Origin: an uncultured virus (IMG/VR IMGVR_UViG_2061766007_000848)
Lineage: Duplodnaviria > Heunggongvirae > Uroviricota > Caudoviricetes
DNA length: 29,692 nt
Virus record (IMG/VR): IMGVR_UViG_2061766007_000848
Direction: 5' to 3' (one strand)
Of this stretch, positions 37 through 29,692 are shown in pieces. The position numbers and the translations under genes are program-made. Numbering within the stretch: the stretch's first letter is position 1; the number at the start of each line of letters is the position of its first letter. The notes beneath the pieces were generated by a model. The model was not told the origin of the DNA. It did no database searches and worked only from the letters and a program-made list of their open reading frames with translations.

Positions 37-225
37 TTATTTAATTTCAAACGTATCAACCCCTGGAATGGCAGCCAAACTTCCCCAGGTACCATGTAAT
101 TGCCCCGCATCGTCTATGCGTTCAATCGTACCTACCTTGCCAACCATTTCGGCTGCCGCCTTATCATATTCTTTATCGGCGTAAACCGATATTATTTTGA
201 TTACATCTCCAACCTTTGCTTTCAT
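37..225 (-). CDS. DUF4314-like small protein
   Basis: GTIERIDDAGQLHGTWGSLAAIPGVD resembles my recollection of the DUF4314 pattern (GTVxxVDDxGQIHVxW..SLALIPGxD); its ATG overlaps the upstream stop. Confidence 0.7.
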   Translation of the reverse strand: MKAKVGDVIKIISVYADKEYDKAAAEMVGKVGTIERIDDAGQLHGTWGSLAAIPGVDTFEIK

Positions 226-802
226 AACTTTATTCTTTTTAAAACTGCTTTCAACGTTTCTTCAAATTCCATCCCCTCTGTATCAATGGTTATTATTTTC
301 ACAAATTCGGTTTTTGAACATTGTTCGGAAATGAACTTTGCTTGGCTATTTTTAGCCCTAATGCTGTCTAATTTACTATCGGTGATATCCTTTTCTGTTT
401 TTCCTGATTCCAAAATTCTTTTCCGCAGCCGTTGGTAGTTTTCCCAAAGCCGTAAATTCAAATGAATCAAAATGAACTCGCAACCATAGTTTAAGCAAAT
501 TTCACACAACGGAATAATCCACTGAGCCGATGTTTGACTTCCTTCTATTAACGTAATTTCATGATGTTTTACGCAATGTTCCACGTTCCGAATTGCCCCA
601 TCCTTCTTCAACTTACCGAAAGAACTGTCCAAGCCGTCACATTGATTTCCCTTCAAGCAATTACCTATTGCCGCCACTCTTCCACCATCGACATATTCCT
701 GGGTATCTGTTGAAATAAGTTTCGGGCTGCGGGTTGATAAGTATTCAATCAACTGATTCCGGAGGGTGCTTTTNNNNNNNNNNNNNNNNNNNNNNNNTCC
801 AT
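222..802 (-). CDS. P-loop nucleotide kinase (resembles phage DNA-modification kinases such as 5-hmU DNA kinase); Walker A partly lost in an N gap
   Basis: Frame extends upstream of the track ORF to KSTLRNQLIEYL at 773, the tail of a GKST Walker A. ATG at 802 lies just across the gap at 774-797. Downstream motifs: AAIGNCLKGNQCDGLD, TLIEG (Walker B) and lid-like NYQRLRKR. Confidence 0.65.
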
Positions 803-811
803 ATAATTTTT

Positions 812-1108
812 TTATTCGACATAATCTTCACTTTCGTCATAATGAATAATTGGCGGGTTGGCGCCCATATAGGGAATAGCCCGCAACGTATTGTAATCAA
901 TCCACTCAATAGCGTCTTCGTAGGTCATGGCGTTTTTCTCGACTAAATAATCAACCATTTTATCATAATCGTACACCACGCCATTTTCCGTAACATCGAT
1001 AACAGCTGTAACATAATCGTAGCCCCGAAAAATTTTCAAGTCCTTGTAGCCTTTCTTTTCGATGTAATCAACTAACTTATCAACTGAATCGAATTCCATA
1101 ATAATCAA
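812..1108 (-). CDS. conserved hypothetical phage protein
   Basis: Clean ORF with VVYDYDKMV...MTYEDAIEWIDYNTLRAIPYMG..PPII, a pattern I recognise from phage hypothetical proteins. Confidence 0.7.
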   Translation of the reverse strand: MIIMEFDSVDKLVDYIEKKGYKDLKIFRGYDYVTAVIDVTENGVVYDYDKMVDYLVEKNAMTYEDAIEWIDYNTLRAIPYMGANPPIIHYDESEDYVE

Positions 1109-1120
1109 ATAAACGTATAT

Positions 1121-1777
1121 TTAAACCCTGTTGTGATTAGGTTCTTTTAAACCCCTCTTAACTTCACTCAAATGCCGTCTTTGCTCTTCAGTCCAACGCT
1201 TTCCATAATTTGGATTTTTATCCCCAATGTATCTGCCCTTCATTTTTTCTGACTGTTTACGTTTTTGTTCTTCAGTCGCAGGAACCCCTTTGTTATGCGA
1301 TGGTCTTCCTAAACTTTTCTTTCTCATTTTATCCCTTGTTTCTTCTGAATGCTTTCGCCCTGTAAATGTTCCAGGGTGTGTTTTAAAATATTCTTTCATT
1401 ATTTCAGATTGACGCTTTTTATATTCAGGGTTTTGAGTTGTTTGCCTATTTTTAATAGTCATTTTTTCAATCACTTCAGGCAATTTAGCAGGATTGTATT
1501 CCGAAGTGTTTACGTCGCCGTCGGCTATATTGTAACCAATGTTTTTATCTTGGGAATGATACTTTTTTATGTAAACATATTCCCAAATACGTAACTCATG
1601 AAGCGTTTTGCAGCGCCTTAAAATCTCGCGTTTGAAATTTTCTTTACCATGCTTTTTCAAAGCAAATTCAAAAGCGGTTCCGCTACCTAAATAACCATCG
1701 TTTTCATCACCCTCATGTTTTCCAATATAAATTTTACCATTGGTTAAACATGTTGTTTTGTAAATAAAACCTATCAT
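1121..1777 (-). CDS. free-standing GIY-YIG homing endonuclease with NUMOD3 repeats (Seg/I-TevI-like)
   Basis: FIYKTT...KIYIGKH, YLGSG, ENFKREIL, catalytic E, GYNI; C-terminal NUMOD3-type repeats GRKHSEETRDKM, ATEEQKRKQSEKM, GKRWTEEQRRHLSE. Confidence 0.92.
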   Translation of the reverse strand: MIGFIYKTTCLTNGKIYIGKHEGDENDGYLGSGTAFEFALKKHGKENFKREILRRCKTLHELRIWEYVYIKKYHSQDKNIGYNIADGDVNTSEYNPAKLPEVIEKMTIKNRQTTQNPEYKKRQSEIMKEYFKTHPGTFTGRKHSEETRDKMRKKSLGRPSHNKGVPATEEQKRKQSEKMKGRYIGDKNPNYGKRWTEEQRRHLSEVKRGLKEPNHNRV

Positions 1778-1823: not shown

Positions 1824-3536
1824 TTATATAAACGAATATTTAAATCCAGTGAATAATTTATTGGAACCTAAAGTTGCTAACCAAATAGAAGAACTAATAT
1901 CGTCATTCTCCCCTACTGACTCCAAGCCTTTGTCCGTAAACGCCACAGAACTTAAATCAGAAAAAATTAAATCTTTAACATCTTGCGAATATTTATCGCC
2001 AATCGGAATATGCATTTTTCCACGCTCCATTAAAATTGCTATGCCTGGCCAGCCTGTCTTCAAATCATATTTATCTATTCCCGTAGTATGACCGATGACG
2101 GGCATTCCTTGTTTATCACTTTCCTGGACAAAAATTTGTTGAAAAGTATTTTGCTCTAAAACCATACAATTTGGTCTAAAACGAACATTTATACCTCTCA
2201 AAACCTGCATTTGCTCATGGAACGTTTTTCCCCTATCTCGATACATGTGCAGCAAATACATTTCCCGATTTTCATCCACGCCCCAAACAGTGAAAACAGT
2301 GTAATCGGCTCCAACGTTTGCCGAAATACTAAAATCACACCCCACTACTACCTTTGAAAATTTAAGCGGAAAATCGTCAACATTTCTTACCAAAGTATAT
2401 TTTTCCATCCCAACTAAACAACGCTCTAAAACCTTTAATGGGAAAATTGATGACTCATTAGTTATCGGTCGACAAAGGTTCTCACGGCTGAAAATGATAT
2501 TTCCTTGCGTAACTTTTTTCTCCATTAAGTCGGCAAAACTCCATCGCTGTGGCCAAAGAATTCTTCCATCGGGGAATATGGCTGGATATTCGATAACAAA
2601 CCAACCTTTCTTGTTATCCGTAGCAAAGCAACTTTTGCTTTTCAGGTCGCCGTATAAGTCTGAAGCGTGGAATGGCGTTCCGACTACTATAATTTGACCA
2701 CCAGGCACAAGCATGTTCATTATGACTGAATGAAAGTAGTCTATGCTTTTTTGACGTTGGAGTGCGCTGTATATGACATTATCTTTTAGTCCGTCGTCAA
2801 CTACTATCCAATAAGGGTGGGCGCCACGTACCGATGACCCAAAACCCTTGCAAGTCAATCGGGCGCCATTTTTACAAACTATATTGGTGCTTGCCCAGGC
2901 GCCATTGTTTTTAGAGTCAGGCATTAGCCGTTCTTTCAGTATGTCGTTTCCTTCAATGGTGCCTTTTAGTATTTCCATTAAGTCTACGGACTGTTGAAGT
3001 GAAAAGCTGAATAGGTATCCGCGATTAGAATTACTCTTTGTAGGTCGTGCCGAAAATATTGTATTTTTCGGTTTCGCATACGAATACAGTTTCCAGGCGC
3101 AGTAAGCATTGGAAAAGTAGTAGGACTTTCCGTGGTCACGAGCCGCATTGATGCACAACTTATTGTAGCGGTGAACCAAGTCGCCCCACTCCAGATGATG
3201 CCAACTGAGTTGAAAATCGGGCATGACCGATGTGATAAAATACGTCAAATTTCGTGTTCGCAAAATTTCCTCAATTGACTGCGATAGCCTTTCAGTATAT
3301 TTCGGGGCAAAGTCAACATTCGGGTTCCCTGTGTACATGACCTGGTATGTATCCTGCATCAAATTATCTAACACCCAATCCAGGTCGCCCTGGGAACCTT
3401 GCATCAATTCCAAAATTCCCTGGTCGTCCATTCCATCGATTATTTCATCAACGATGTTCAAGCATTCCAAATGATGCATGGGCGATTGAATTAGTTGCCC
3501 TAAATTCTTTTCCGTTATTTCGGGAGCGGTTACCAT
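1824..3536 (-). CDS. terL: terminase large subunit
   Basis: Walker A AARDHGKS, VRGAHP, Walker B WIVVDD, coupling motif VVGTPF, RNase H-like nuclease VVGCDFS...ADYTV, and C-terminal ENDD. Confidence 0.95.
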   Translation of the reverse strand: MVTAPEITEKNLGQLIQSPMHHLECLNIVDEIIDGMDDQGILELMQGSQGDLDWVLDNLMQDTYQVMYTGNPNVDFAPKYTERLSQSIEEILRTRNLTYFITSVMPDFQLSWHHLEWGDLVHRYNKLCINAARDHGKSYYFSNAYCAWKLYSYAKPKNTIFSARPTKSNSNRGYLFSFSLQQSVDLMEILKGTIEGNDILKERLMPDSKNNGAWASTNIVCKNGARLTCKGFGSSVRGAHPYWIVVDDGLKDNVIYSALQRQKSIDYFHSVIMNMLVPGGQIIVVGTPFHASDLYGDLKSKSCFATDNKKGWFVIEYPAIFPDGRILWPQRWSFADLMEKKVTQGNIIFSRENLCRPITNESSIFPLKVLERCLVGMEKYTLVRNVDDFPLKFSKVVVGCDFSISANVGADYTVFTVWGVDENREMYLLHMYRDRGKTFHEQMQVLRGINVRFRPNCMVLEQNTFQQIFVQESDKQGMPVIGHTTGIDKYDLKTGWPGIAILMERGKMHIPIGDKYSQDVKDLIFSDLSSVAFTDKGLESVGENDDISSSIWLATLGSNKLFTGFKYSFI

Positions 3537-7165: not shown

Positions 7166-7379
7166 CCTTTCCAGGGTGCCAGGTAGAGGAATGAATTTCG
7201 TATTCACGAACTTTGTAAATTCGTCCATTGCAGTCCACGTGGTACAAAATTTTTACAATCGCTTCATCAACAGGCTTAACAACGTACACCCGAATTTGTT
7301 TAACAACGCCATCAAAAACTGCCTTATCAGGCATTATCCTGACATTGTCGCCAATGTTATATTTTACTTCGATTTTCAT
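7158..7379 (-). CDS. hypothetical protein (SH3-like 'KYNIGD.V' type)
   Basis: MKIEVKYNIGDNV start; coupled to its neighbours. Confidence 0.7.
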   Translation of the reverse strand: MKIEVKYNIGDNVRIMPDKAVFDGVVKQIRVYVVKPVDEAIVKILYHVDCNGRIYKVREYEIHSSTWHPGKDD

Positions 7380-7582
7380 AAATCAATCTTTTCAATTTTT
7401 TCAACGCCCAAAATCGTTTCACCATCATATTCGATTGCTTTCGCATCGGGCGCTGGTTTGTAATGCAGTTCAAAATAATCGTAGGTTCCGTCGCCAAACG
7501 TAACCTTATAAATTCTCTTCTGGGGTGCGCAACTCGATAATAGCGCTGCCCCCAGGATTAACATTGTTACTACTTTTTTCAT
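7376..7582 (-). CDS. small predicted lipoprotein
   Basis: MKKVVTMLILGAALLSSC is a signal peptide with a lipobox Cys. Confidence 0.7.
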   Translation of the reverse strand: MKKVVTMLILGAALLSSCAPQKRIYKVTFGDGTYDYFELHYKPAPDAKAIEYDGETILGVEKIEKIDL

Positions 7583-7715
7583 TTTTTAGTGTTTTTGTAT
7601 CGAAAAATTTATGATATTGATTATATCTGTAATTTCGTTCGCATTCGCTACAACTTCCTAAACAAAGTTCTTCCGAAACAAAGAACTTACAATTCAAACA
7701 CTTTATCATCGTCAT
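7506..7715 (-). CDS. small Cys-rich hypothetical protein
   Basis: CLNC...CLGSCSEC; overlaps the lipoprotein gene by 77 nt. Confidence 0.45.
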   Translation of the reverse strand: MTMIKCLNCKFFVSEELCLGSCSECERNYRYNQYHKFFDTKTLKNEKSSNNVNPGGSAIIELRTPEENL

Positions 7716-7938
7716 CCTCTTTATAGTCGATTAAAAGTTTGACCAATAACCATTTCACTGAAAAGTAGATAATGCCCCCGAAAGTTCCGTGGATAAATAG
7801 CGAGCCGAAAAAACTCACCAAAGTATATTCACCATTCTCGCTCCATGAATAGTAAGCGTAAACCATTATCAGCGCAACCCCGATTATGCAAACCAGGGCA
7901 TTCAAAAAGTTCAAAAATTTAAACGCTTTCATGACCAC
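7687..7938 (-). CDS. two-TM membrane protein
   Basis: Two hydrophobic stretches and an acidic tail. Confidence 0.65.
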   Translation of the reverse strand: MVMKAFKFLNFLNALVCIIGVALIMVYAYYSWSENGEYTLVSFFGSLFIHGTFGGIIYFSVKWLLVKLLIDYKEDDDDKVFEL

Positions 7939-7943
7939 CCCTC

Positions 7944-8216
7944 CTACTTAACTTCTTTTGATTTACAAACTAAAACGTCGCCTACAATAAAGTCGCCAAA
8001 GTAAACCTGGTGCTGATAAATTTCGGTTGCTTTTTCATTATAGGGCAAATCATTCAATTTTCCCTCTTCGTTGATGACCATTATGTCATGATTTTTCATT
8101 TGGGCTATTTCGATATATCCGCCCACGATTTCCTGGAGTTCAGCTAACTTGAAATCTTTTCCATTTTTCGGCTCGATGTCTAACACCTCACCATTTGCTT
8201 TGTAAATCTTTGCCAT
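7944..8216 (-). CDS. DUF3846-like protein
   Basis: LAELQEIVGGYIE...MVINEEGKLNDLPYNEKAT...DFIVGDVLV. Confidence 0.85.
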   Translation of the reverse strand: MAKIYKANGEVLDIEPKNGKDFKLAELQEIVGGYIEIAQMKNHDIMVINEEGKLNDLPYNEKATEIYQHQVYFGDFIVGDVLVCKSKEVK

Positions 8217-10279: not shown

Positions 10280-10591
10280 TTACAATTCGTTTTTTGCTAT
10301 TATATTTGCGGTTCGTATAGCGGTTCTTGCGTTCCTTTTGGTTTTTGACTTTTTCGGTTTGATACGCAAGCGTCGTACCCTTAACACGCAAATTGGGTAT
10401 TGTTTTTTGCTTGGGGGATAATGTGATATGCCTTCAATTTTGTATTCTTTTATTTTATCAATGAAATTAATGATACCCCGAACAGTGCCTGGGGTGTAAA
10501 TAAAAATCCGACAATGTAGCAAATCGTCGGAATAGATGCACGCCAAAGCGTCTTTTTGCTGAACCGCCTTTGTTAACTGAACAAGGTTCAT
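10280..10591 (-). CDS. basic hypothetical protein
   Basis: 103-aa ORF in operon packing. Confidence 0.6.
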   Translation of the reverse strand: MNLVQLTKAVQQKDALACIYSDDLLHCRIFIYTPGTVRGIINFIDKIKEYKIEGISHYPPSKKQYPICVLRVRRLRIKPKKSKTKRNARTAIRTANIIAKNEL

Positions 10592-10734
10592 ACCTCTATT
10601 ATTTCTTCTTTAGAATTAAGTTTCAAAAATGAATCTTCATGTAAAAACGTTCCCATGATACCACCTATCAAAATAGGTTCACCCGAATAGTTGAATTCAA
10701 CCCTTATTAGTCTATTTCCTTTTTCGGTTTCCAC
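10588..10734 (-). CDS. small hypothetical protein (GTG start)
   Basis: (M)ETEKGNRLIRVEFNYSGEPILIGGIMGTFLHEDSFLKLNSKEEIIEV; overlaps the flanking stop and start. Confidence 0.45.
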   Translation of the reverse strand: METEKGNRLIRVEFNYSGEPILIGGIMGTFLHEDSFLKLNSKEEIIEV

Positions 10735-11096
10735 TACTCCATTGCATTTTTGAAATCTCTAATATCATTTGTTGTAAACCTTGTGTTTTTAAACAACCAC
10801 TCACAAGCCTTGTCAATCAATTGTTGTTTCTTAAAAATTGCCCCATTTTCAAACGATTGTGTAACTGCTTGATTGGCTTTTTCAATCAGTTGTTTTCGCT
10901 CAATTGAAAACTGCTCGTCTTTCCACTGCATTGCTTGCAACGCACATCGTTTGAAATCATCAAAGTAAGAATAGTGGTCATTGCCTACAATATTCTTTGC
11001 TATCTCCGTAGCCTTCCGCTCGTTTGCAGTCTCTTTTTTAGGGTTGTTTTGATACATACTCAAGAACTGAATTGGTGTAATGTTTTCTGAATCCAT
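10734..11096 (-). CDS. hypothetical protein, paralog of 13519-13827
   Basis: Likely start MDSENIT; shares NExKAxEI, AMQWKDEQ and QQxIDxACEW with its paralog. Confidence 0.7.
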   Translation of the reverse strand: MDSENITPIQFLSMYQNNPKKETANERKATEIAKNIVGNDHYSYFDDFKRCALQAMQWKDEQFSIERKQLIEKANQAVTQSFENGAIFKKQQLIDKACEWLFKNTRFTTNDIRDFKNAME

Positions 11097-11104
11097 GGTC
11101 AATT

Positions 11105-11284
11105 TTATTTTCGGTGTCCTATATGATATTTCCCGCAATCGGAGCATTTGTAAACTCGATAAATCGCTCGTTTTATGCCGTTTGATTCCATGTATTCGAT
11201 AGCGTCTTTTTCACTATCAAAGCCCTTCTTGGGCATCATTATTCGGTTTCCCTTCCTTGTCCAATGATTGTTTAAACTTTTCAT
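11105..11284 (-). CDS. small Zn-ribbon protein (missed by the track, 59 aa)
   Basis: MKSLNNHWTRKGNRIMMPKKGFDSEKDAIEYMESNGIKRAIYRVYKCSDCGKYHIGHRK. Confidence 0.7.
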   Translation of the reverse strand: MKSLNNHWTRKGNRIMMPKKGFDSEKDAIEYMESNGIKRAIYRVYKCSDCGKYHIGHRK

Positions 11285-11514
11285 TTTCGATTTTCAATTT
11301 ATATGCTTTGATAAGCATATCCTGGTGTCGAATAATGCTATCCCTATTATTTATAGTTTCCGTCAAACTATTGTTCAGCGCCCTTAAATTGTTTACATCG
11401 GAATAATATTGCGCCTGGGCTGCTTCCATTTGTTTTTGAAACGTAACCAGTTGTTGGTGAAGCAATTGAACTTCCTTATTCCTACTTTTGGAAAGTNNNN
11501 NNNNNNATTTCCAT
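11217..11514 (-). CDS. coiled-coil hypothetical protein
   Basis: Heptad-rich; start is near an N gap. Confidence 0.6.
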
Positions 11515-22766: not shown

Positions 22767-24086
22767 TTATTTCTTACCCGCCAATTTACGCTTAATGTCC
22801 TCCAGGGATACCTTACTTTTTGGAGCGTCATCCTCTTCTTCCTCTTCCTCTTCTTCGTCATCAGATTCATCGGCTCCATTGGTTTCGGCATTTCGGATTG
22901 CATTTCGTAAGTCGTCATCCGACATTGACTTTTTAATCGAAATGTCCAGGTCGTTATCCTTAACGTATTTTTTCAACGCATCCCTGTCCATGGCGTCAAA
23001 CTTATCACCCGATGATTCTTCCTCTTCCTCCTCGTCGTCTTCCTCTTCTTCGTCATCGGTTTCGTCTTCTTCCTCCTCGTCGTCAACTTTCGATGCTTTC
23101 TTGGCGGGCGCTGACTTTTTAGCAGGCTTTTCATCCTCCTCTTCGTCATCGGTTTCCTCTTCCTCTTCGTCGTCTTCGGGCTCAACTTTCTTCACGCTTT
23201 TCTTAACCGCTTTCTTTTTCGGCTCATCGTCATCGCTATCGTCGCTGTCATATTGAGCCTTAATTTCCTCAACGTGCTCAAGCCAATCGTCATCATCGAA
23301 AAGCCCGATGCCGTTTTCGTCATCGAAATTCTGCAAGCCCTCCAAAGCCTTTTCAAAATCTCTCATTCCGTACTTTGGAAGCACTTCATTAAGCGGTTTC
23401 AAAGTCATGAAATATTCGATTTCCTCGTCTGTCAATGGACGTGCCACAACTTTCTTTGGGAACGATACCTCATAATAATTTTCACCCTTCTTTTTGTTCG
23501 GGTTCTTCATATACTTGACCAAAATAGGTAGTCCCTCGTCTGGGTCAGTAAATGGGTCAACCTCGATTGCCTCATCCTCGTCTTCTGAGAAGGCAAGTTT
23601 ATTCATGGCGTCGCGAACCATCTTTTTGAATTCCCAAAGTTTTGCGCGCAACTCCTCATCGGGATTTACGGCTGCCGCATAGCAAAGCCAGGTGTAAGAT
23701 GGACTCAGACTATCTTTTTGACCAGTCAGTGCCTCTAACTTATCGGCATCCTTTGCCCATTTCTTCTTTGCGTATTTTACGTACTCATCTACCAAATCCC
23801 ATTTTGTTCCTCCATGGACTTTTGAATCCAGGACTGTGGTTCGTCTTGGGTCACCATCCCTACCAGTGACTGTGAGCCAATAACATTTCTTTGGAATGTA
23901 GAAGTCTTCAACTCCTGGATGGGCGGGAAAAATTCGGATTTTCAAAGTTTTGCCGTCTTCCAGGTTCAAATACTCATTGCTGCTGACGCCAACCATTTCG
24001 TTGTCTTCGTCAACACGCTTTTTCAGTTTTTTAATCGGAGTTGCCTTCAGCTGCGAACGCAAATCTCCAGCAGTGCTTTTCGCCAT
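22767..24086 (-). CDS. gp32-like single-stranded DNA-binding protein with a long acidic tail
   Basis: KIRIFP, DPFTDPDEG..I, YEVSF core; about 160-aa D/E/K-rich tail; lies between the UvsY-like gene and recA. Confidence 0.75.
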   Translation of the reverse strand: MAKSTAGDLRSQLKATPIKKLKKRVDEDNEMVGVSSNEYLNLEDGKTLKIRIFPAHPGVEDFYIPKKCYWLTVTGRDGDPRRTTVLDSKVHGGTKWDLVDEYVKYAKKKWAKDADKLEALTGQKDSLSPSYTWLCYAAAVNPDEELRAKLWEFKKMVRDAMNKLAFSEDEDEAIEVDPFTDPDEGLPILVKYMKNPNKKKGENYYEVSFPKKVVARPLTDEEIEYFMTLKPLNEVLPKYGMRDFEKALEGLQNFDDENGIGLFDDDDWLEHVEEIKAQYDSDDSDDDEPKKKAVKKSVKKVEPEDDEEEEETDDEEEDEKPAKKSAPAKKASKVDDEEEEDETDDEEEEDDEEEEEESSGDKFDAMDRDALKKYVKDNDLDISIKKSMSDDDLRNAIRNAETNGADESDDEEEEEEEEDDAPKSKVSLEDIKRKLAGKK

Positions 24087-24104: not shown

Positions 24105-24635
24105 TTAGTCAATCAACTTTTTCGTTCGTTTTATTAAAACGTTGTTCACCTTCCCCTCGATAGCCGAATCAGGAATATCGCCTTGCTGGACAGTCAAGGA
24201 AAGTTTGTCCAACTTTTCACTCTTATCTTTTGCGGACCAAAATACCGAATTCATGTAGTCCCTTGTTTTTTGGCATTCAATCAGCTTTTTTCGGATAGCC
24301 TGATAAGCCTTGTTCACAACTACAGCGTTGTTCAACGCTTCAACAGTTGGAGCCTTTCCGTTGTTCTCAGCGGCTAATTCGGCTCTCAAGCGTTCCTTGG
24401 TTTTCGCCTCAAATACTTCTAAATTCAACTTCGCCTCAGCCACCTGGCTTTCGGCTTCAGCAAGTAGTTGGCCAAAGCGGTTTACAATCACGGGAAACGT
24501 TACCAACTCACCTATCAAATTTGAATAGTCAATCTTCAATAGGGAATCAATATCCATATCCTCATCAAAACTATCAAACAACAGTTTGTAAGTTTTTTCA
24601 CCGATGGTTATAATCTTCTTTTCCATAACTAACAA
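24105..24635 (-). CDS. UvsY-like recombination mediator
   Basis: LKIDYSNLIGEL...long helix...PTVEALNNAV...SAKDKSEKLDKLS; syntenic with SSB and RecA. Confidence 0.6.
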   Translation of the reverse strand: MLVMEKKIITIGEKTYKLLFDSFDEDMDIDSLLKIDYSNLIGELVTFPVIVNRFGQLLAEAESQVAEAKLNLEVFEAKTKERLRAELAAENNGKAPTVEALNNAVVVNKAYQAIRKKLIECQKTRDYMNSVFWSAKDKSEKLDKLSLTVQQGDIPDSAIEGKVNNVLIKRTKKLID

Positions 24636-24665
24636 CTTTTAGTCGGTTTTTTCAAACTTTCCTGG

Positions 24666-24917
24666 TCATCCTGCNNNNNNNNNNNNNNNNNNNNNNNNNN
24701 NNNNNNNNNNNNNNNNNNNNNNTCCTTCAAAGTTGGGAGTTGCCTCCCTATTTTCTACCATGTTTCTGTACCTACGTACTTTGTCCCACAAATGAACCAT
24801 ATTGCCGTTCAGCCCCAAGTCGAATGAAGCCCCCTTGTAATCTTGGTTCTTTTTTACGAGCAGGTCGCTCATGCCATTGAAAACGCTTTCAATGCTTTCC
24901 TTCGTCATCTTTGCCAT
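24666..24917 (-). CDS. NMAD1/DUF1599-like nucleotide-modification-associated protein
   Basis: LLVKKNQDYKGASF..LGLNG..VHLWDKVRRYRN; the C-terminal ExxxDxxxD region falls in an N gap. Confidence 0.7.
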   Translation of the reverse strand: MAKMTKESIESVFNGMSDLLVKKNQDYKGASFDLGLNGNMVHLWDKVRRYRNMVENREATPNFEGXXXXXXXXXXXXXXXXAG

Positions 24918-25551
24918 ACAAACTTTTAATTAAATTATTTAATTCATCAAAATTCAATTCAATCCCTGGAATATCAAACCTAAATTTAAGAACATCCATT
25001 ACTTTTTCAGCCGTTTTCGTAGCGTTTTGTCGGCAATATTCCCATTTAGCATATAAACTGTTGTTTCCTAACTCACGCTCTCTTTTCATATAAAATATAA
25101 GCGCAAGCCAATCACATAATTTACAAAAAAGTTTAGCGTCGCTGATAGCGCTGCAAATATTATCAACCATCATACANNNNNNNNNNNNNNNNNNNNNNNN
25201 ATTTTTTTCGCAAAATTCTTCAAGCGCCCTATGGTGAGCAAAATCGTTTAAAACTTCCCTAATCTTTTCACCATTATAAGCGTTGTATTTTGTCTCATGT
25301 GACATGTCCCGCAATATTAGCGCTTCATCCCAATCATGAAACATTAGAGCATCCAAACAGGCCAGTTTGAAGTCTAAAACTTTTGGACAATTATTATTTC
25401 CAAAGATATCCTCAAGCAGTACCCTACCAAAAATTAAAACCTTATAAGAATGTTGGCTGACGCTTTCTTCTTTGAAGACGTCTATTTCCTGCCATTGCTT
25501 AATGTTATCAAGTCGCTTCAAATAAGCCCCATTGAAAATTTTACTAATCAT
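24889..25551 (-). CDS. HD-domain deoxynucleotide phosphohydrolase (YfbR/DatZ-like)
   Basis: RL..IKQW, ESVSQHSYKV, ALMFHDWDEA...D....KY, CKLCDWLA, ERELGN. Confidence 0.85.
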   Translation of the reverse strand: MISKIFNGAYLKRLDNIKQWQEIDVFKEESVSQHSYKVLIFGRVLLEDIFGNNNCPKVLDFKLACLDALMFHDWDEALILRDMSHETKYNAYNGEKIREVLNDFAHHRALEEFCEKNXXXXXXXXCMMVDNICSAISDAKLFCKLCDWLALIFYMKRERELGNNSLYAKWEYCRQNATKTAEKVMDVLKFRFDIPGIELNFDELNNLIKSLYGKDDEGKH

Positions 25552-25562
25552 TTTTTACAAAA

Positions 25563-28500
25563 TTAAGATTTACTATTCCGCCATTCTTCGGCTCTTGTAG
25601 TCTTTTCCTTATGGTCAGACAATATGTATAACTTTGTTTTGCTGTTACTGAACAACTTCTTCTCATTCTTCCAGGTATCTTTTTCGACAATTCCGCTCAA
25701 CGCTACAACGCAGCCTTTCAGGTCGGCTATATCTTCACCGATTTTTTCATAAGCATCAGGCCAAAGTAGTACAGGAATAATGGTATTATTGCAGTTGATA
25801 TTCAGCGTGCACATGGTACCCGATTTAATTGCTTTTTCCTTGTAGTAAATAAGTTTCCCCGCAATCGCAACCTCTTGTTTTTCCTTTGTTGCTAAAAATT
25901 CAACGTCATTAACAAACAAGTTGGCCAACCGCTTATTCGGAATAGCATCTTTAATCATATTTTCATAATCAACTTCGCCAAAGCCCGTCAACCGCTTTTG
26001 CTCCATTATCCAAAAAGCATTTGAATTGCTATCAACCGAAGTGTATTCTTCCGGAAGTTGCTCACCTTTTGTTTCCAAATACTTTTCCAAAAGCCCCTTT
26101 CTATCACGAGGATTATTCAGTTCCTCTATCAAGTCAAACGCTCCAGCAATGATAAGGCACTTTACAACAGTCTTATTCACCTTTGAAGGCACTCGGCTTA
26201 AAAACTCTTCCAGGGAATAAAACTTTCCGCCCTCGTTCCTTACATTCATAATGTTCTGAACTGCCACTTCACCAACCCCTTTGATTTTTGTAAGGCTGAA
26301 GAAAATACGTTGTTCTTTGGCATCACATGTAAAGTTTACGTCAGAAAAGTTTACGTCAGGCGGACGGATTTCGATTTCAACACCAGTTTTTTTCAATTCC
26401 GNNNNNNNNNNNNNNNNNNNNNNNNCCTTTGAAAATTGAAGAGCCGTTGTCCAAAACTCAAGCGGATAATTCACTTTGAACCACTGACTCCAATATGAGA
26501 TTATCGTATACGCAACAGCGTGAGAATTTGAAGTAACAATTCCGTTTGAAGTTAAGAAAGTGTGACTCACATCACCGCTTACTTCCACATCATAAACTTC
26601 TTTTTCACCCACAAATTCAATACTAACAATACATTCATTTACAACTGATAATCCCTTTTCACCCATATTGAAATCATACTTTTTATTTGTTGGTTCGTAA
26701 CCGCCATTACAAAATAAATAATCTCCTACTTTTAATTGAAAAACTAATTTTATCCCATTAGGTGTAGGAAATTTATGGTTCATGGTTACGTTTATAGTTT
26801 TACCAAATTCAGTAGTGATTTTATACACTTTTCTCACCCCAACAAATCGTATATCTACAATCTTATTTTTCTTCAATCTGCCGTCTGAAGATAAAGAAAA
26901 ACACATCCCATATCCTTTACTATTATATTTTTTTCGCAAAGCATAATGTCCACTTTCTTCAGCTTGTTTTACTGACATGTTCTTTATCTTATACATTTCA
27001 GCAATAGTTGGAATAAAACTATCAAAATTATTGCCAACTCTTAATATAGTTTCATCTCCATCTATACATTTGTTGAAGCCGTAACCGCTAAAAGCAAGCA
27101 ACTTGTCCCAAACGTGGGCAGCATATTCCTTTGGCTTTTCTATTCCATTTTTTGAAAGCAATTTTTCGTAGCCTGTTTTGAACTTTTCGCCGTAACTACT
27201 CAGCGTCTTGATATCCTTCTTTTTTATTGTCGTTCTTAAAATATCAGACTCAACCTCCGTCAACCCGCCAACCACAACCGCTTTCATGATTTGTTCCTGA
27301 TATACGTACAACCCGAAAGTCTCGCGAGTTATATTTTCCATTCCAAAATCATAGGCTGGTTTTTTCTTGCCGTTTTTGATATCGCAAAAGTCCTGGTGGG
27401 CGTTCATTTCCATTGGACCAGGTCTGAAAAGAGCCGACATGGCTATAAGATTTTCCAGACTTTCGGGCTTCACTTGCCGGCAGTAGTTCATCAAANNNNN
27501 NNNNNNNNNNNNCATCTTCATTCCAACCTCGTCTGAAATACTTGTAGGTCTGTTCGTCATCCAATGGGATTGCATTGACGTCAATAGCCTTTCCTGTGTT
27601 TTGCTTTATAAGGTTTAAGATGCTTTTGAATTTGTCGAGTTGTGAAAGCCCTAAAATATCCTCTTTCAGAAAGCCCGATTTATCAATGTACTTTCCTTCC
27701 CATTCACTAACTAACACGCCATCGATTTTCTTGACGGGCATCCACCCCCATAAATCAATTTCTTCATTGGTTCCATCTACCTTGTGTTTCGGTACAATTA
27801 CAACGGCTGAAGGGTGAACGCTTTCCGCCTTTGGCTGAAGAAGTGCGTATTTTGTTAGGTGAACTAATTCGGGATTTTCTTGAACGAATTTAAAAAGTGC
27901 TTTTGACTTTGATGCGTATTCAATCAAATCGCCCCAAGTGTACTCCACCTGGTCATCAATGTCCTTTGTTAGTTTGTTAGTCAAGTCGAATGAAAGCCCC
28001 TTGACCTTCCCGAAGTCCTTTATGCAAGTTTTCAATTTCATTCGTGTATAGGTTCCAATGCTGCATGTGTAGGCATAACCATAGCGGTCTTTGATGTATT
28101 CCTTTACGATATCACGATATTCCGTTGGAAAGTCGCAGTCAATATCGGGCATTGAGTCGGCTGATTTTGCACGCTCACCGCTTACACGAGTTTCGTTAAG
28201 AAAACGCTCAAACATCAAGCCGTACTTTAATGGGTCAACATCGGTGATGTATAGACAATAGGCTATCAAACAACCGCATACCGAACCACGTCCAACGCCA
28301 GTGTTGATTCCGTTATCTCGACACCACTTTATTATATCCCAAAGAATCATGAAATAGTCGCAAAGCCCATTCGGAACAATTACATTACATTCCGTTTCAA
28401 TCTGCTTCAAATACCTACCTAATTCTTCAGGCGGCAAGTTTCCCAGGCGCTCGTTTATTCCCTTTTCAAGTTCTTTGAAAAATTTCTTTTCTACGTTCTT

Positions 28501-29692
28501 AACTTCAAAATGGGGCAATTTACGCTCACCTGTGTTTATTCTGAATTCTATCTTATCCGAAAGCCTGGATGCGTTTTCAATGCCCTCGATAATAACATCC
28601 GCCAATGGCTTTACATCTTCAAGCCATTCTGAATATGAATCCATTGNNNNNNNNNNNNNNNNNNNNNNNNNNGATTTTCCGATTCAGGTGTTACTTTTCC
28701 ATCAACCTTGTTCAGCATCGCCTTCAACGAACATTCTTCCTTGTCTAAATAGTAGGAATCATTTATCAATATCGGCTTCATCAACTTTTTGTATTCACAA
28801 AGATAGGTATCGATGTTGGTCAAATGGTTCCGGAATAACTGATTGGAAGTGTACTCAACTGTATCAATTTGATAGTAAACCTCGTCAAATGCTTTTTTGT
28901 ATTTTGCTATAAGTTTTACGGCTGCTTTCTTATCATCCTTAATGTAGTTGAATTCACTTTCCTTTGGAATGACGCAGCAAAGCCCTTCCCCTAATGTGTA
29001 AAGAAGTTCATCGGGGATAAATCCGCCATAATCTACGTTGATTGCTTTATTGATTAGCAAAAGACTTTTCCACCCCTTTTCATTCAAAACGAAAAACTTC
29101 AATTCAAACGTTTCCTGGTTAGCCTTATCAGCCGAATAATCGATGGCGACCGTCACAGTTTCCCCGATTATTGATTTCATCCCTTTCTTTTCGCAAGCGG
29201 TTTGGAATGATAGCGTTCCAGCCAGTGTATTTCGGTCACAAATTCCAACCGCCTTACAATTCAAAAAACTTGCTTTCTTGACCCACGTTTCGCAGGCGCC
29301 AGAGCCGTTCATCATTTCGTACTCCGAATGAACCCCCAGGTGAACAAAATCCATGACCTGGGGTTCGCTTGACTTTCCAAGGTATTTAAAGTCATTGAAT
29401 TCGGGCTTGTAAATCATTTCATTGTAGCGGTTCTTATCCTTCTTCAACGATGAATAATAGAATTTGCCGCCAAACTCGAACAAAATGAAATTAACCTTAT
29501 TTTCATCCAAAATATCGAATTCCTCATCCGATAGAATGAACGAAAAATCTTCATCAATTACCTTTCCGTCAAATGGCTTCAAATAAAGAAACGTACCAAC
29601 GCCATCTACGGAAATAATATCAGAGCCATCTAATTCTGACTCTGATATTACTAACTTGTTTTCAACTATCCAATTTGATAAACTTTCCGTCA
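25563..29692 (-). CDS. dnaE: DNA polymerase III alpha subunit with intein (one gene across N gaps; start codon at the window edge)
   Basis: PHP HLGVHSEY, ICDRNTL, INDSYY; GRGSVCG, FERFLN, PDIDCDF, HPSAVV, KEDILGL, LFRPGP, YQEQIM, YGFNK/SHA.AY, IKGVG HhH, C-terminal OB fold. The frame stays open to the last base. Confidence 0.95.
26526..27068 (-). mobile_element. mini-intein (181 aa) in DnaE, no homing endonuclease
   Basis: Inserted at GFNK|SHAVAY; begins CIDGDE, block B TMNHKF, block F VYDVEV, ends IVTSN before Ser+1. Confidence 0.93.

What the first reader, a model, noticed from the sequence alone, without database searches (positions are those of the whole stretch)
24666..25551. HD nucleotidase and NMAD1-like gene coupled directly behind DnaE: candidate nucleotide-pool remodelling module for a modified-base genome
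Seen: an HD phosphohydrolase starts 11 nt after the dnaE stop and overlaps an NMAD1/DUF1599-like gene. Known: YfbR-type HD enzymes dephosphorylate deoxynucleotides, DatZ removes dATP in diaminopurine phages, and NMAD1 is associated with phage nucleotide-modification loci. Inference: the pair removes a canonical dNTP/dNMP so that a family C polymerase incorporates a substitute. The characterised base-substituted phages I know use family A or B polymerases, so a DnaE-based example would be unusual.
Basis: partly seen in the sequence, partly recalled or inferred. Interest (0 to 1): 0.7.

Follow-up and report, generated by a model that had tools for sequence, protein, structure and literature searches.

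The report
Gut phage thymine-replacement gene module
These two genes belong to a conserved gene cluster of an uncultured phage family that likely replaces thymine with hydroxymethyl-uracil in its DNA, a known trick that here would be run by a bacterial-type DnaE polymerase, for which my literature searches found no precedent.

Summary
A YfbR-family HD hydrolase starts 11 nt behind dnaE and overlaps an NMAD1/DUF1599 gene. The modified-base idea is well supported, but for thymine, not adenine. In all 67 informative loci of 77 relatives, a SPO1/SP10-type dUMP hydroxymethylase homolog lies directly upstream of dnaE, just beyond this window's edge. The clade-1 aGPT/HMUDK-helical gene is in 29 of 29 near-complete relatives, and PurZ in 0 of 29. 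The window also encodes a weak but specific 5-hmdU-DNA-kinase-like gene. The HD enzyme is likely the thymidylate-removing phosphatase; a YfbR-family dTMP phosphatase is proven in phage DSS3_VP1, and phage M6 has the same hydroxymethylase–HD–DUF3310 order. The slot behind HD holds NMAD1 (35 loci), a DUF3310/gp1.7-like gene (36) or a dNMP kinase (4), so NMAD1 may supply the monophosphate-kinase step. The phage fits 'Gratiaviridae'. The main text of that family's description does not mention this pathway. The four nearest cultured DnaE phages lack the hydroxymethylase and the HD gene. No enzyme or DNA was tested, the HD lacks the usual catalytic arginine, and the window's own hydroxymethylase is inferred. 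Verdict: new variant of a known kind.

The parts
25563..29692 (-). dnaE, family C DNA polymerase with an intein; begins at the window edge; the dUMP hydroxymethylase homolog lies just upstream in relatives and is outside the window
   Evidence: Pfam PHP, DNA_pol3_alpha, finger, HHH_6, Intein_splicing; 80-90% identical to G001 DnaE from residue 2
24889..25551 (-). YfbR-family HD 5'-deoxynucleotidase, predicted thymidylate (dTMP, possibly dTTP) phosphohydrolase
   Evidence: PF12917 E 4e-11; metal ligands H34, H72, D73, D147, E76, D82 and sugar-gating W20 conserved, Q19 at the catalytic Arg position
24629..24917 (-). NMAD1/DUF1599 gene, about 100 aa, 3' part under an N run (end inferred); candidate (hm)dUMP kinase or accessory factor
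   Evidence: orthologs pass PF07659; slot shared with DUF3310-like and dNMP-kinase genes; end
24105..24626 (-). conserved 173-aa gene that follows the slot (UvsY-like by my recollection; phrog_20212, unknown function)
22767..24086 (-). single-strand DNA-binding protein of the same replication operon
   Evidence: phrog_1192 E 2e-4; synteny
222..822 (-). P-loop kinase resembling 5-hmdU DNA kinases (5-HMUDK); N run near its 5' end
   Evidence: 98%-identical homolog P0122 hits phrog_800 positions 31-214, E 1e-8, the range hit by proven M6 gp54; hhalign to gp54 57%, E 1e-4; Atlas top hits HMUDK/Ploopntkinase3 at 0.85-0.87; below Pfam cut-offs
1824..3536 (-). terminase large subunit, used to tie the window to the complete relatives
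   Evidence: phrog_38; 86.5% identical to G001, 80-81% to G003 and G004

Best explanation
The HD gene and NMAD1 gene sit in a conserved hydroxymethylase–dnaE–HD–slot cluster that likely swaps dTTP for 5-hydroxymethyl-dUTP before replication, so that the phage's DnaE would build 5-hmdU DNA. Inferred steps: (1) a phage dUTPase, and in a few members a dCMP deaminase, supplies dUMP; (2) the thymidylate-synthase homolog makes hmdUMP; (3) the HD enzyme dephosphorylates dTMP (possibly dTTP) and starves the thymidine pool; (4) the gene in the slot behind it (dNMP kinase, DUF3310/gp1.7-like protein or NMAD1) phosphorylates hmdUMP, and host kinases finish; (5) DnaE inserts hmdU opposite A; (6) the hydroxyl may be modified further after replication. 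Shown here: gene families, order, residues and co-occurrence. Not shown: any activity, and the hydroxymethylase gene in this window's own genome.
For: Synteny: TS homolog directly upstream of dnaE in 67 of 77 loci; the other 10 are cut by contig ends. The 22 metagenome loci show the same order, 18 reaching the TS gene. Hydroxymethylase identity: best phage hits are SPO1 gp29, SP10 'dUMP hydroxymethylase' and M6 gp58 at 35-47%. It prefers phrog_5131 (7e-71; the SPO1/SP10 family) over phrog_160 (1e-34; the ThyA family). 53 of 53 distinct full-length copies have Cys-Asn at ThyA C146-H147; the 11 aligned lack ThyA W80/W83 and keep Asn at 177, like the known dUMP hydroxymethylases. It is the only TS-family gene per genome: 28 of 29 records match, one is cut, and the 199-kb record holds two genome copies. 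PF18723 is in 29 of 29; Lee 2018 found this class only in thymidine-hypermodifying phages among the seven genomes compared. dUTPase is in 28 of 29. Precedent: the PF12917 enzyme of DSS3_VP1 is a dTMP phosphatase (PMC12697855); hmU phages use dTMPase, dTTPase and a dNMP kinase (PMC8989533). M6 order is hydroxymethylase, HD, small gene, DUF3310-type gene, polymerase; an Ackermannvirus has hydroxymethylase then dNMP kinase. Negative control: DAC16, MA9V-3, phiST and BS-TP1 have DnaE but no hydroxymethylase (MA9V-3 has only an ordinary ThyA), no PF12917 and no PF18723.
Against: The window ends at the dnaE start and no genome is held; the closest relatives are about 74% identical in DNA. The HD has an invariant Gln where DatZ R19/YfbR R18 is described as strictly conserved, so its chemistry may differ. 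It is only 13-15% identical to the DSS3_VP1 and M6 HD proteins, which form another subfamily (phrog_6047). The lysines that bind DatZ's triphosphate are also present in monophosphatases, so the substrate cannot be read from sequence. dCMP deaminase is in only 3 of 29, against 3 of 3 control hmU phages. Tree support joining the family to hydroxymethylases is 81/92, with long branches and an unsettled bootstrap. NMAD1 shows no homology to the DUF3310-like family (hhalign 0.3%). The T-containing sites GATC and CTAG are nearly absent from the window, G001 and G004, so T-containing sites are still avoided. SPO1 itself has no PF12917 gene. The relatives are related, so counts are not independent events.
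Confidence: 0.72

Rival explanations
1. The genome is 5-hmdU-based, but the HD protein is not the thymidylate remover. It is a broad dNMP phosphatase, a regulator of dUMP/hmdUMP, or a degenerate enzyme, and thymidine is removed by the dUTPase-family gene.
For: Gln at the catalytic Arg position; the DSS3_VP1 enzyme has substantial dUMPase activity; SPO1 gp22.1 is annotated as a possible dUTPase/dTTPase and SPO1 lacks PF12917; a bifunctional dTTPase/dUTPase is described for SH-Ab 15599.
Against: All six metal ligands and W20 are invariant across 38 aligned homologs, with further invariant basic residues R13, R81, K88, K144; the gene is fixed beside the hydroxymethylase and dnaE; M6 and RHph_I72 also place an HD gene behind the hydroxymethylase.
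Confidence: 0.13
2. Ordinary nucleotide housekeeping: the TS homolog is a divergent true thymidylate synthase and the DNA is unmodified.
For: Strong avoidance of GATC, CTAG and AGCT in the window; no amino-acid:DNA transferase in 29 genomes; dCMP deaminase is rare.
Against: Motifs, best hits and PHROG preference place the enzyme with dUMP hydroxymethylases, apart from ThyA; PF18723 in 29 of 29; kinase-like gene in the window.
Confidence: 0.08
3. The substituted base is cytosine: the TS homolog is a dCMP hydroxymethylase and the HD removes dCMP or dCTP, with glycosylated hmC as in T-even phages.
For: The top PDB sequence hit is the CMP hydroxymethylase MilA, E 4e-17, level with ordinary TS; E. 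coli YfbR is annotated dCMP phosphohydrolase; the tested phage DNA glycosyltransferases act on hmC.
Against: Asn at position 177, where T4 gp42 has Asp (the role of this residue is recalled); the nearest characterised homologs are dUMP enzymes; C-containing sites CCGG and CGCG are strongly avoided; the companion genes belong to thymidine pathways.
Confidence: 0.05
4. A diaminopurine (Z) genome with a DatZ-like dATPase.
For: PHROG label 'dATP triphosphohydrolase', E 1e-10.
Against: PurA/PurZ 0 of 29 with a ringing S-2L control; the label is not specific; I22 is replaced by Glu and identity to DatZ is 16%.
Confidence: 0.02

Closest known systems
Pseudomonas phage M6/YuA-like thymidine-hypermodifying phages (gp54-gp62)
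   Same: dUMP hydroxymethylase followed by an HD hydrolase, a DUF3310-type gene and the polymerase; clade-1 aGPT gene; P-loop 5-HMUDK.
   Different: M6's polymerase is a 664-aa single-chain enzyme (family A in the related RHph_I72); here it is DnaE. No clade-2 amino-acid transferase here (0 of 29; M6 control rings). The HD belongs to another subfamily, and genes are spread over the genome.
Bacillus phages SPO1 and SP10 (5-hmdU and glutamylthymine DNA)
   Same: Closest hydroxymethylase (37-45%); dUTPase-family gene; SP10 gp186 fuses the kinase and helical halves that are separate genes here.
   Different: SPO1 has no PF12917 or PF18723 gene; their polymerases are family A (recalled); Gram-positive hosts.
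Roseophage DSS3_VP1 dTMP phosphatase (Dtm, PF12917)
   Same: Same Pfam family, with a proven role in removing dTMP for a T-substituted genome (PMC12697855).
   Different: dU rather than hmdU DNA; T7-like polymerase; 13% identity (I picked the DSS3_VP1 HD gene by motif, not by accession).
'Gratiaviridae' (Benler et al. 2021, PMC8008677)
   Same: DnaE, DnaG, SF1/SF2 helicases, SbcCD, RecA, contractile tail, DPS-like ferritin, and glycosyltransferase + ATPase + kinase-like genes between portal and capsid genes in the relatives.
   Different: The main text has no occurrence of 'thymidylate' or 'hydroxymethyl' and reads the glycosyltransferase as capsule-modifying; supplements not read.
Cellulophaga phage phiST
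   Same: One of the nearest cultured DnaE relatives (34%), with a fully substituted base, dG to 7-deazaguanine (PMC10516641).
   Different: That substitution is proposed to be post-replicative (DpdA3); no hydroxymethylase or YfbR-like gene.
S-2L DatZ and E. coli YfbR
   Same: HD fold with the same metal ligands and deoxyribose-gating Trp.
   Different: Gln for the catalytic Arg, Glu for DatZ I22; no PurZ; 16% and 21% identity.

Membership tests
YfbR-like HD 5'-deoxynucleotidase (PF12917) | Pfam score above the curated cut-off | tested here: met
   43.4 against 25.9 bits
YfbR-like HD 5'-deoxynucleotidase (PF12917) | two-metal ligands (H, HD, D; E, D) and sugar-gating Trp | tested here: met
   H34, H72, D73, D147, E76, D82, W20
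YfbR-like HD 5'-deoxynucleotidase (PF12917) | Arg before the Trp that stabilises the phosphate intermediate | tested here: not met
   invariant Gln19 in 38 of 38 aligned homologs; a substitute Arg could not be checked without a model
DatZ / Z-genome system | PurZ in the genome | tested here: not met
   0 of 29 relatives, S-2L control positive; the window's own genome is not held
DatZ / Z-genome system | Ile22 adenine filter | tested here: not met
   Glu22
NMAD1/DUF1599 (PF07659) | Pfam score above the cut-off | tested here: met
   met by 8 of 8 full-length orthologs; the window copy is incomplete and scores no hit
5-hmdU ('hmU') phages, pre-replicative pathway | dUMP hydroxymethylase gene | tested here: met
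   in relatives, 67 of 67 informative loci; outside the window for this phage
5-hmdU ('hmU') phages, pre-replicative pathway | no separate canonical thymidylate synthase | tested here: met
   one PF00303 gene per genome; no ThyX hit among the ORFs scanned from six genomes; ThyX not searched across all 29
5-hmdU ('hmU') phages, pre-replicative pathway | dCMP deaminase | tested here: not met
   3 of 29; controls M6, SPO1 and SS9 ring
5-hmdU ('hmU') phages, pre-replicative pathway | dNMP kinase | tested here: inconclusive
   P-loop dNMP kinase in the slot in 4 of 77 loci; the genome-wide search missed a known copy; no unexplained Walker A protein of this kind in G001, G003, G004, G027
5-hmdU ('hmU') phages, pre-replicative pathway | hmdU or a derivative in the DNA; dTMPase/dTTPase activity | not testable with these tools
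   needs LC-MS and enzyme assays
Thymidine-hypermodifying phages (M6, ViI, SP10, phiW-14) | P-loop 5-HMUDK | tested here: inconclusive
   weak match in the window, L043 and 1 of 29 genomes; below Pfam cut-offs
Thymidine-hypermodifying phages (M6, ViI, SP10, phiW-14) | clade-1 aGPT / HMUDK helical domain (PF18723) | tested here: met
   29 of 29 relatives; five genes past the kinase in L043
Thymidine-hypermodifying phages (M6, ViI, SP10, phiW-14) | clade-2 amino-acid:DNA transferase (PF18724) | tested here: not met
   0 of 29; M6 and SS9 ring, SP10 also lacks it
'Gratiaviridae' | DnaE + DnaG with helicases, SbcCD, RecA; contractile tail | tested here: met
   window and G001
'Gratiaviridae' | DPS-like ferritin; glycosyltransferase, ATPase and HipA-like kinase between portal and capsid genes | tested here: inconclusive
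   ferritin, glycosyltransferase and Walker A ATPase found in relatives; the 787-aa protein has no family hit and is called HipA-like from recalled motifs only
'Gratiaviridae' | monophyly with the 18 published genomes on a TerL tree | not tested
   the published genomes were not fetched

The most novel reading that the evidence does not exclude
'Gratiaviridae' are a whole family of gut Bacteroidetes phages with hydroxymethyluracil genomes made by a family C polymerase, and they carry a sugar on that base (base-J-like). The glycosyltransferase read earlier as a capsule enzyme is interchangeable with a TET-associated DNA glycosyltransferase (GT-B-like in 17 of 29, TAGT in 12 of 29, both in 1, neither in 1; same gene slot in G027). 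NMAD1/DUF1599 is a small non-P-loop nucleotide kinase for hmdUMP, and members such as this window add a 5-hmdU DNA kinase without any known transferase, which implies an undescribed thymidine modification.
Probability: 0.25. Interest if true: 0.85.

Novelty: new variant of a known kind. Interest (0 to 1): 0.62.

Why it matters
It predicts non-standard DNA for an uncultured phage family found in human gut assemblies. Such DNA affects restriction and CRISPR escape and may bias library preparation and abundance estimates. It would extend pre-replicative base substitution to DnaE polymerases; the characterised cases I checked use other polymerases (DSS3_VP1, SP-15, phiW-14, S-2L). It gives a cheap test for a domain of unknown function, NMAD1 as a kinase stand-in, and names candidate enzymes for a new thymidine modification. 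It also offers a DNA-directed reading of the family's glycosyltransferase.

Tried and rejected
Z-genome/DatZ: rejected. Queuosine-like genes: no hit among the ORFs scanned from six genomes; not searched across all 29. No cultured phage in INPHARED matches the window's HD at E 1e-3; a distant family member found only GXN1 and GR1 at E below 0.01. NMAD1 and the DUF3310-like slot gene as homologs: not detected; neither has a solved relative by sequence. The genome-wide phrog_139 search was insensitive, missing the known G014 kinase, so it is not used as evidence of absence. Palindrome avoidance as a proxy for T modification was inconclusive. GC-only 4-mers are more depleted than A/T-containing ones (window 0.39 vs 0.76, G001 0.13 vs 0.69, SPO1 part 0.33 vs 0.93), but GATC and CTAG are near zero, G027 shows no difference, and controls were partial genomes (the script stopped at its last summary row). 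DAC16 as a cultured model: the gene upstream of its dnaE is a helicase and it lacks the module. The PIG-L-like label for the gene beside the glycosyltransferase is recalled from motifs and got no Pfam or PDB support. No structure model was obtained, so active-site geometry and the NMAD1 fold remain open. No near-identical contig extending the window was found. The scan's earlier notes returned nothing.

Full report
Observation. The window is a minus-strand phage replication and packaging region with many short N runs; no whole genome is held. The dnaE stop is at 25563. The 220-aa ORF 25551-24889 starts 11 nt later and overlaps the next ORF, which starts at 24917, by 29 nt. The 220-aa protein is YfbR-like (PF12917, E 4e-11). 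The second ORF is NMAD1/DUF1599 by its full-length orthologs (8 of 8 above the cut-off). Its real end is probably 24629 rather than 24666.

Context from relatives. The HD family has 327 homologs at E up to 1e-3 and none in cultured phages. Two scans gave 77 IMG/VR loci and one gave 22 metagenome loci. In the 77, dnaE is directly upstream of HD in 76, and a ~400-aa thymidylate-synthase homolog is directly upstream of dnaE in 67. The other 10 loci are cut by contig ends. The window ends at dnaE's second codon, so that gene would lie just outside it. Core window proteins are mostly 74-92% identical to those of complete genome G001, and the HD 63%. These ~100-kb contractile-tailed phages match the description of 'Gratiaviridae' (PMC8008677, passages read). 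I did not place them on a tree with the published genomes.

The TS homolog is most likely a dUMP hydroxymethylase. Its best phage matches are SPO1 gp29, SP10 and M6. It scores 7e-71 on the SPO1/SP10 PHROG against 1e-34 on the ThyA PHROG, the reverse of E. coli ThyA. All 53 distinct full-length copies carry Cys-Asn at the catalytic cysteine. The 11 that I aligned lack ThyA's W80 and W83 and keep Asn177, where T4's dCMP enzyme has Asp (residue roles recalled). In the tree, ThyA proteins form their own clade (100/98) and the family joins the dUMP hydroxymethylases at 81/92, a rough value. The top PDB hit, the CMP hydroxymethylase MilA, is level with ordinary TS.

Genome-wide inventory. I searched 29 long records (28 of the 77 loci plus L044; 26 at least 90% complete; many closely related; one 199-kb record holds two genome copies). 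PF18723 (clade-1 aGPT/HMUDK helical) is in 29 of 29. There is one TS-family gene per genome, 28 of 29. dUTPase is in 28 of 29 and dCMP deaminase in 3 of 29. The amino-acid:DNA transferase is in 0 of 29 with positive controls, and PurA/PurZ in 0 of 29 with a positive control. A full P-loop 5-HMUDK half is in 1 of 29. The four nearest cultured DnaE phages (DAC16, MA9V-3, phiST, BS-TP1) lack the hydroxymethylase, PF12917 and PF18723. So the HD travels with the hydroxymethylase rather than with DnaE.

The HD enzyme. It keeps the two-metal ligands and the deoxyribose-gating Trp defined for DatZ (PMC8065100, passages), but has Gln at the catalytic Arg and Glu at DatZ's adenine filter. The PHROG label 'dATP triphosphohydrolase' is not specific, since YfbR scores higher on it than DatZ. 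A PF12917 protein of DSS3_VP1 is a proven dTMP phosphatase with weaker dUMP activity (PMC12697855, passages). hmU phages deplete thymidine nucleotides with dTMPase and dTTPase (PMC8989533, passages and Discussion). M6 and RHph_I72 place an HD gene behind the hydroxymethylase, and SP-15 carries a PF12917 gene too. Thymidylate removal is therefore the likeliest role; mono- versus triphosphate cannot be told from sequence.

The slot behind HD. It holds NMAD1 in 35 loci, a phrog_480 gene in 36, a P-loop dNMP kinase in 4 (phrog_139, E 3e-9 and 1e-15 for the two tested), and is cut in 2. The phrog_480 proteins match DUF3310 only weakly (E 0.02-0.06 in 2 of 14) and 'nucleotide kinase' PHROGs at E about 1e-3, while a clear member of those families matches phrog_480 at 7e-7. 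DUF3310 is linked to the T7 gp1.7 nucleotide kinase (PMC10700055, passages). In the genomes tested the alternatives exclude each other: no convincing NMAD1 match in 5 of 5 non-NMAD1 genomes, and no phrog_480-type match in 3 NMAD1 genomes or the kinase genome. M6 has a DUF3310-type gene and SS9 a dNMP kinase in the matching place. This suggests a shared monophosphate-kinase step, but NMAD1 shows no homology to the DUF3310-like group. I put NMAD1 as a kinase at about 0.4.

After replication. The window's own gene 222-822 resembles 5-HMUDKs, weakly but by three routes. In L043 its homolog lies five genes from PF18723; SP10 gp186 fuses the two (PMC5889632, passages). No known transferase accompanies it. 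A GT-B-like glycosyltransferase (17 of 29) and a TET-associated glycosyltransferase (12 of 29) are nearly exclusive and share a slot. Phage enzymes of both folds glycosylate DNA and are often found with TS genes (bioRxiv 10.1101/2023.12.21.572611, passages). Here they lie far from the TS gene, among late genes, so a protein or cell-surface target remains possible.

Against the reading. No activity is shown. The window's own hydroxymethylase is inferred. dCMP deaminase is mostly absent, the catalytic Arg is missing, T-containing palindromes GATC and CTAG are still avoided, and the loci are not independent.

Novelty. hmU substitution and HD-type dTMPases are known. phiST shows that a DnaE phage can carry a fully substituted base, by a proposed post-replicative route (PMC10516641, passages). 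DSS3_VP1 and SP-15 have family A-type and phiW-14 a gp43-type polymerase (PMC5977210, passages). Searches for hmU together with DnaE, gut or Bacteroides phages found no such report, and Benler's main text lacks 'thymidylate' and 'hydroxymethyl'. The library omits most subscription journals. Supplements of Benler 2021 and Lee 2022 were not read and those of the preprint are closed, so these genomes may appear in their tables. PMC13458397 and PMC13092281 were seen as passages only. The paper that defined the NMAD and aGPT domains was not read.

Verdict. Real feature, and a new variant of a known kind. Best explanation 0.72; interest 0.62. The bold reading (glycosylated hmU, NMAD1 as a kinase, a new modification) has probability 0.25 and interest 0.85.

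Noticed in passing
window 222-822 (-): P-loop kinase like 5-hmdU DNA kinases, three genes past the terminase. It is absent from 28 of 29 near-complete relatives and present in L043 and G012. PHROG and RefSeq label this family 'terminase small subunit', including proven M6 gp54.
   Followed up: yes
G001 48837-50288; G027 34918-35727 and 53123-53938; G014 10464-11330: The GT-B-like glycosyltransferase (17 of 29) and TET-associated glycosyltransferase PF20691 (12 of 29) are nearly mutually exclusive and share a slot beside a deacetylase-like gene (label recalled) and, in some genomes, a radical SAM/SPASM gene.
   Followed up: partly
window, about 26590-27065 (-): Intein in dnaE. Several relatives instead split dnaE with a GIY-YIG endonuclease gene or carry longer insertions.
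   Followed up: no
G001 60734-61783: FkbM-family methyltransferase directly behind the PF18723 gene, found in only 1 of 6 whole genomes compared.
   Followed up: partly
window 1-29692: GATC and CTAG are almost absent and AGCT, CGCG, CCGG and GGCC strongly depleted, which suggests a host with several restriction systems.
   Followed up: partly
G003 70337-70825: MazG/PRA-PH-like pyrophosphohydrolase in the one genome of 29 that lacks a dUTPase.
   Followed up: no
L112 8022-9865 (Streptococcus phage GXN1); L113 7941-9895 (Geobacillus phage GR1): Cultured phages with a YfbR-like HD gene next to a very divergent TS-like gene (GXN1), or next to a glycosyltransferase and upstream of a large PHP-domain gene (GR1): possible further modified-base phages.
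   Followed up: no
window 1121-1777 (-): GIY-YIG/NUMOD3 homing endonuclease behind the terminase; paralogs occur at many sites in relatives.
   Followed up: no
G012 7212-8093: The PF18723 match contains one TGA inside; frameshift, split gene or recoding was not examined.
   Followed up: no
G014 1192-2799; G012 (L118 10793-11452): A GroEL-like chaperonin in G014 and a 2OG-Fe(II) oxygenase in G012.
   Followed up: no
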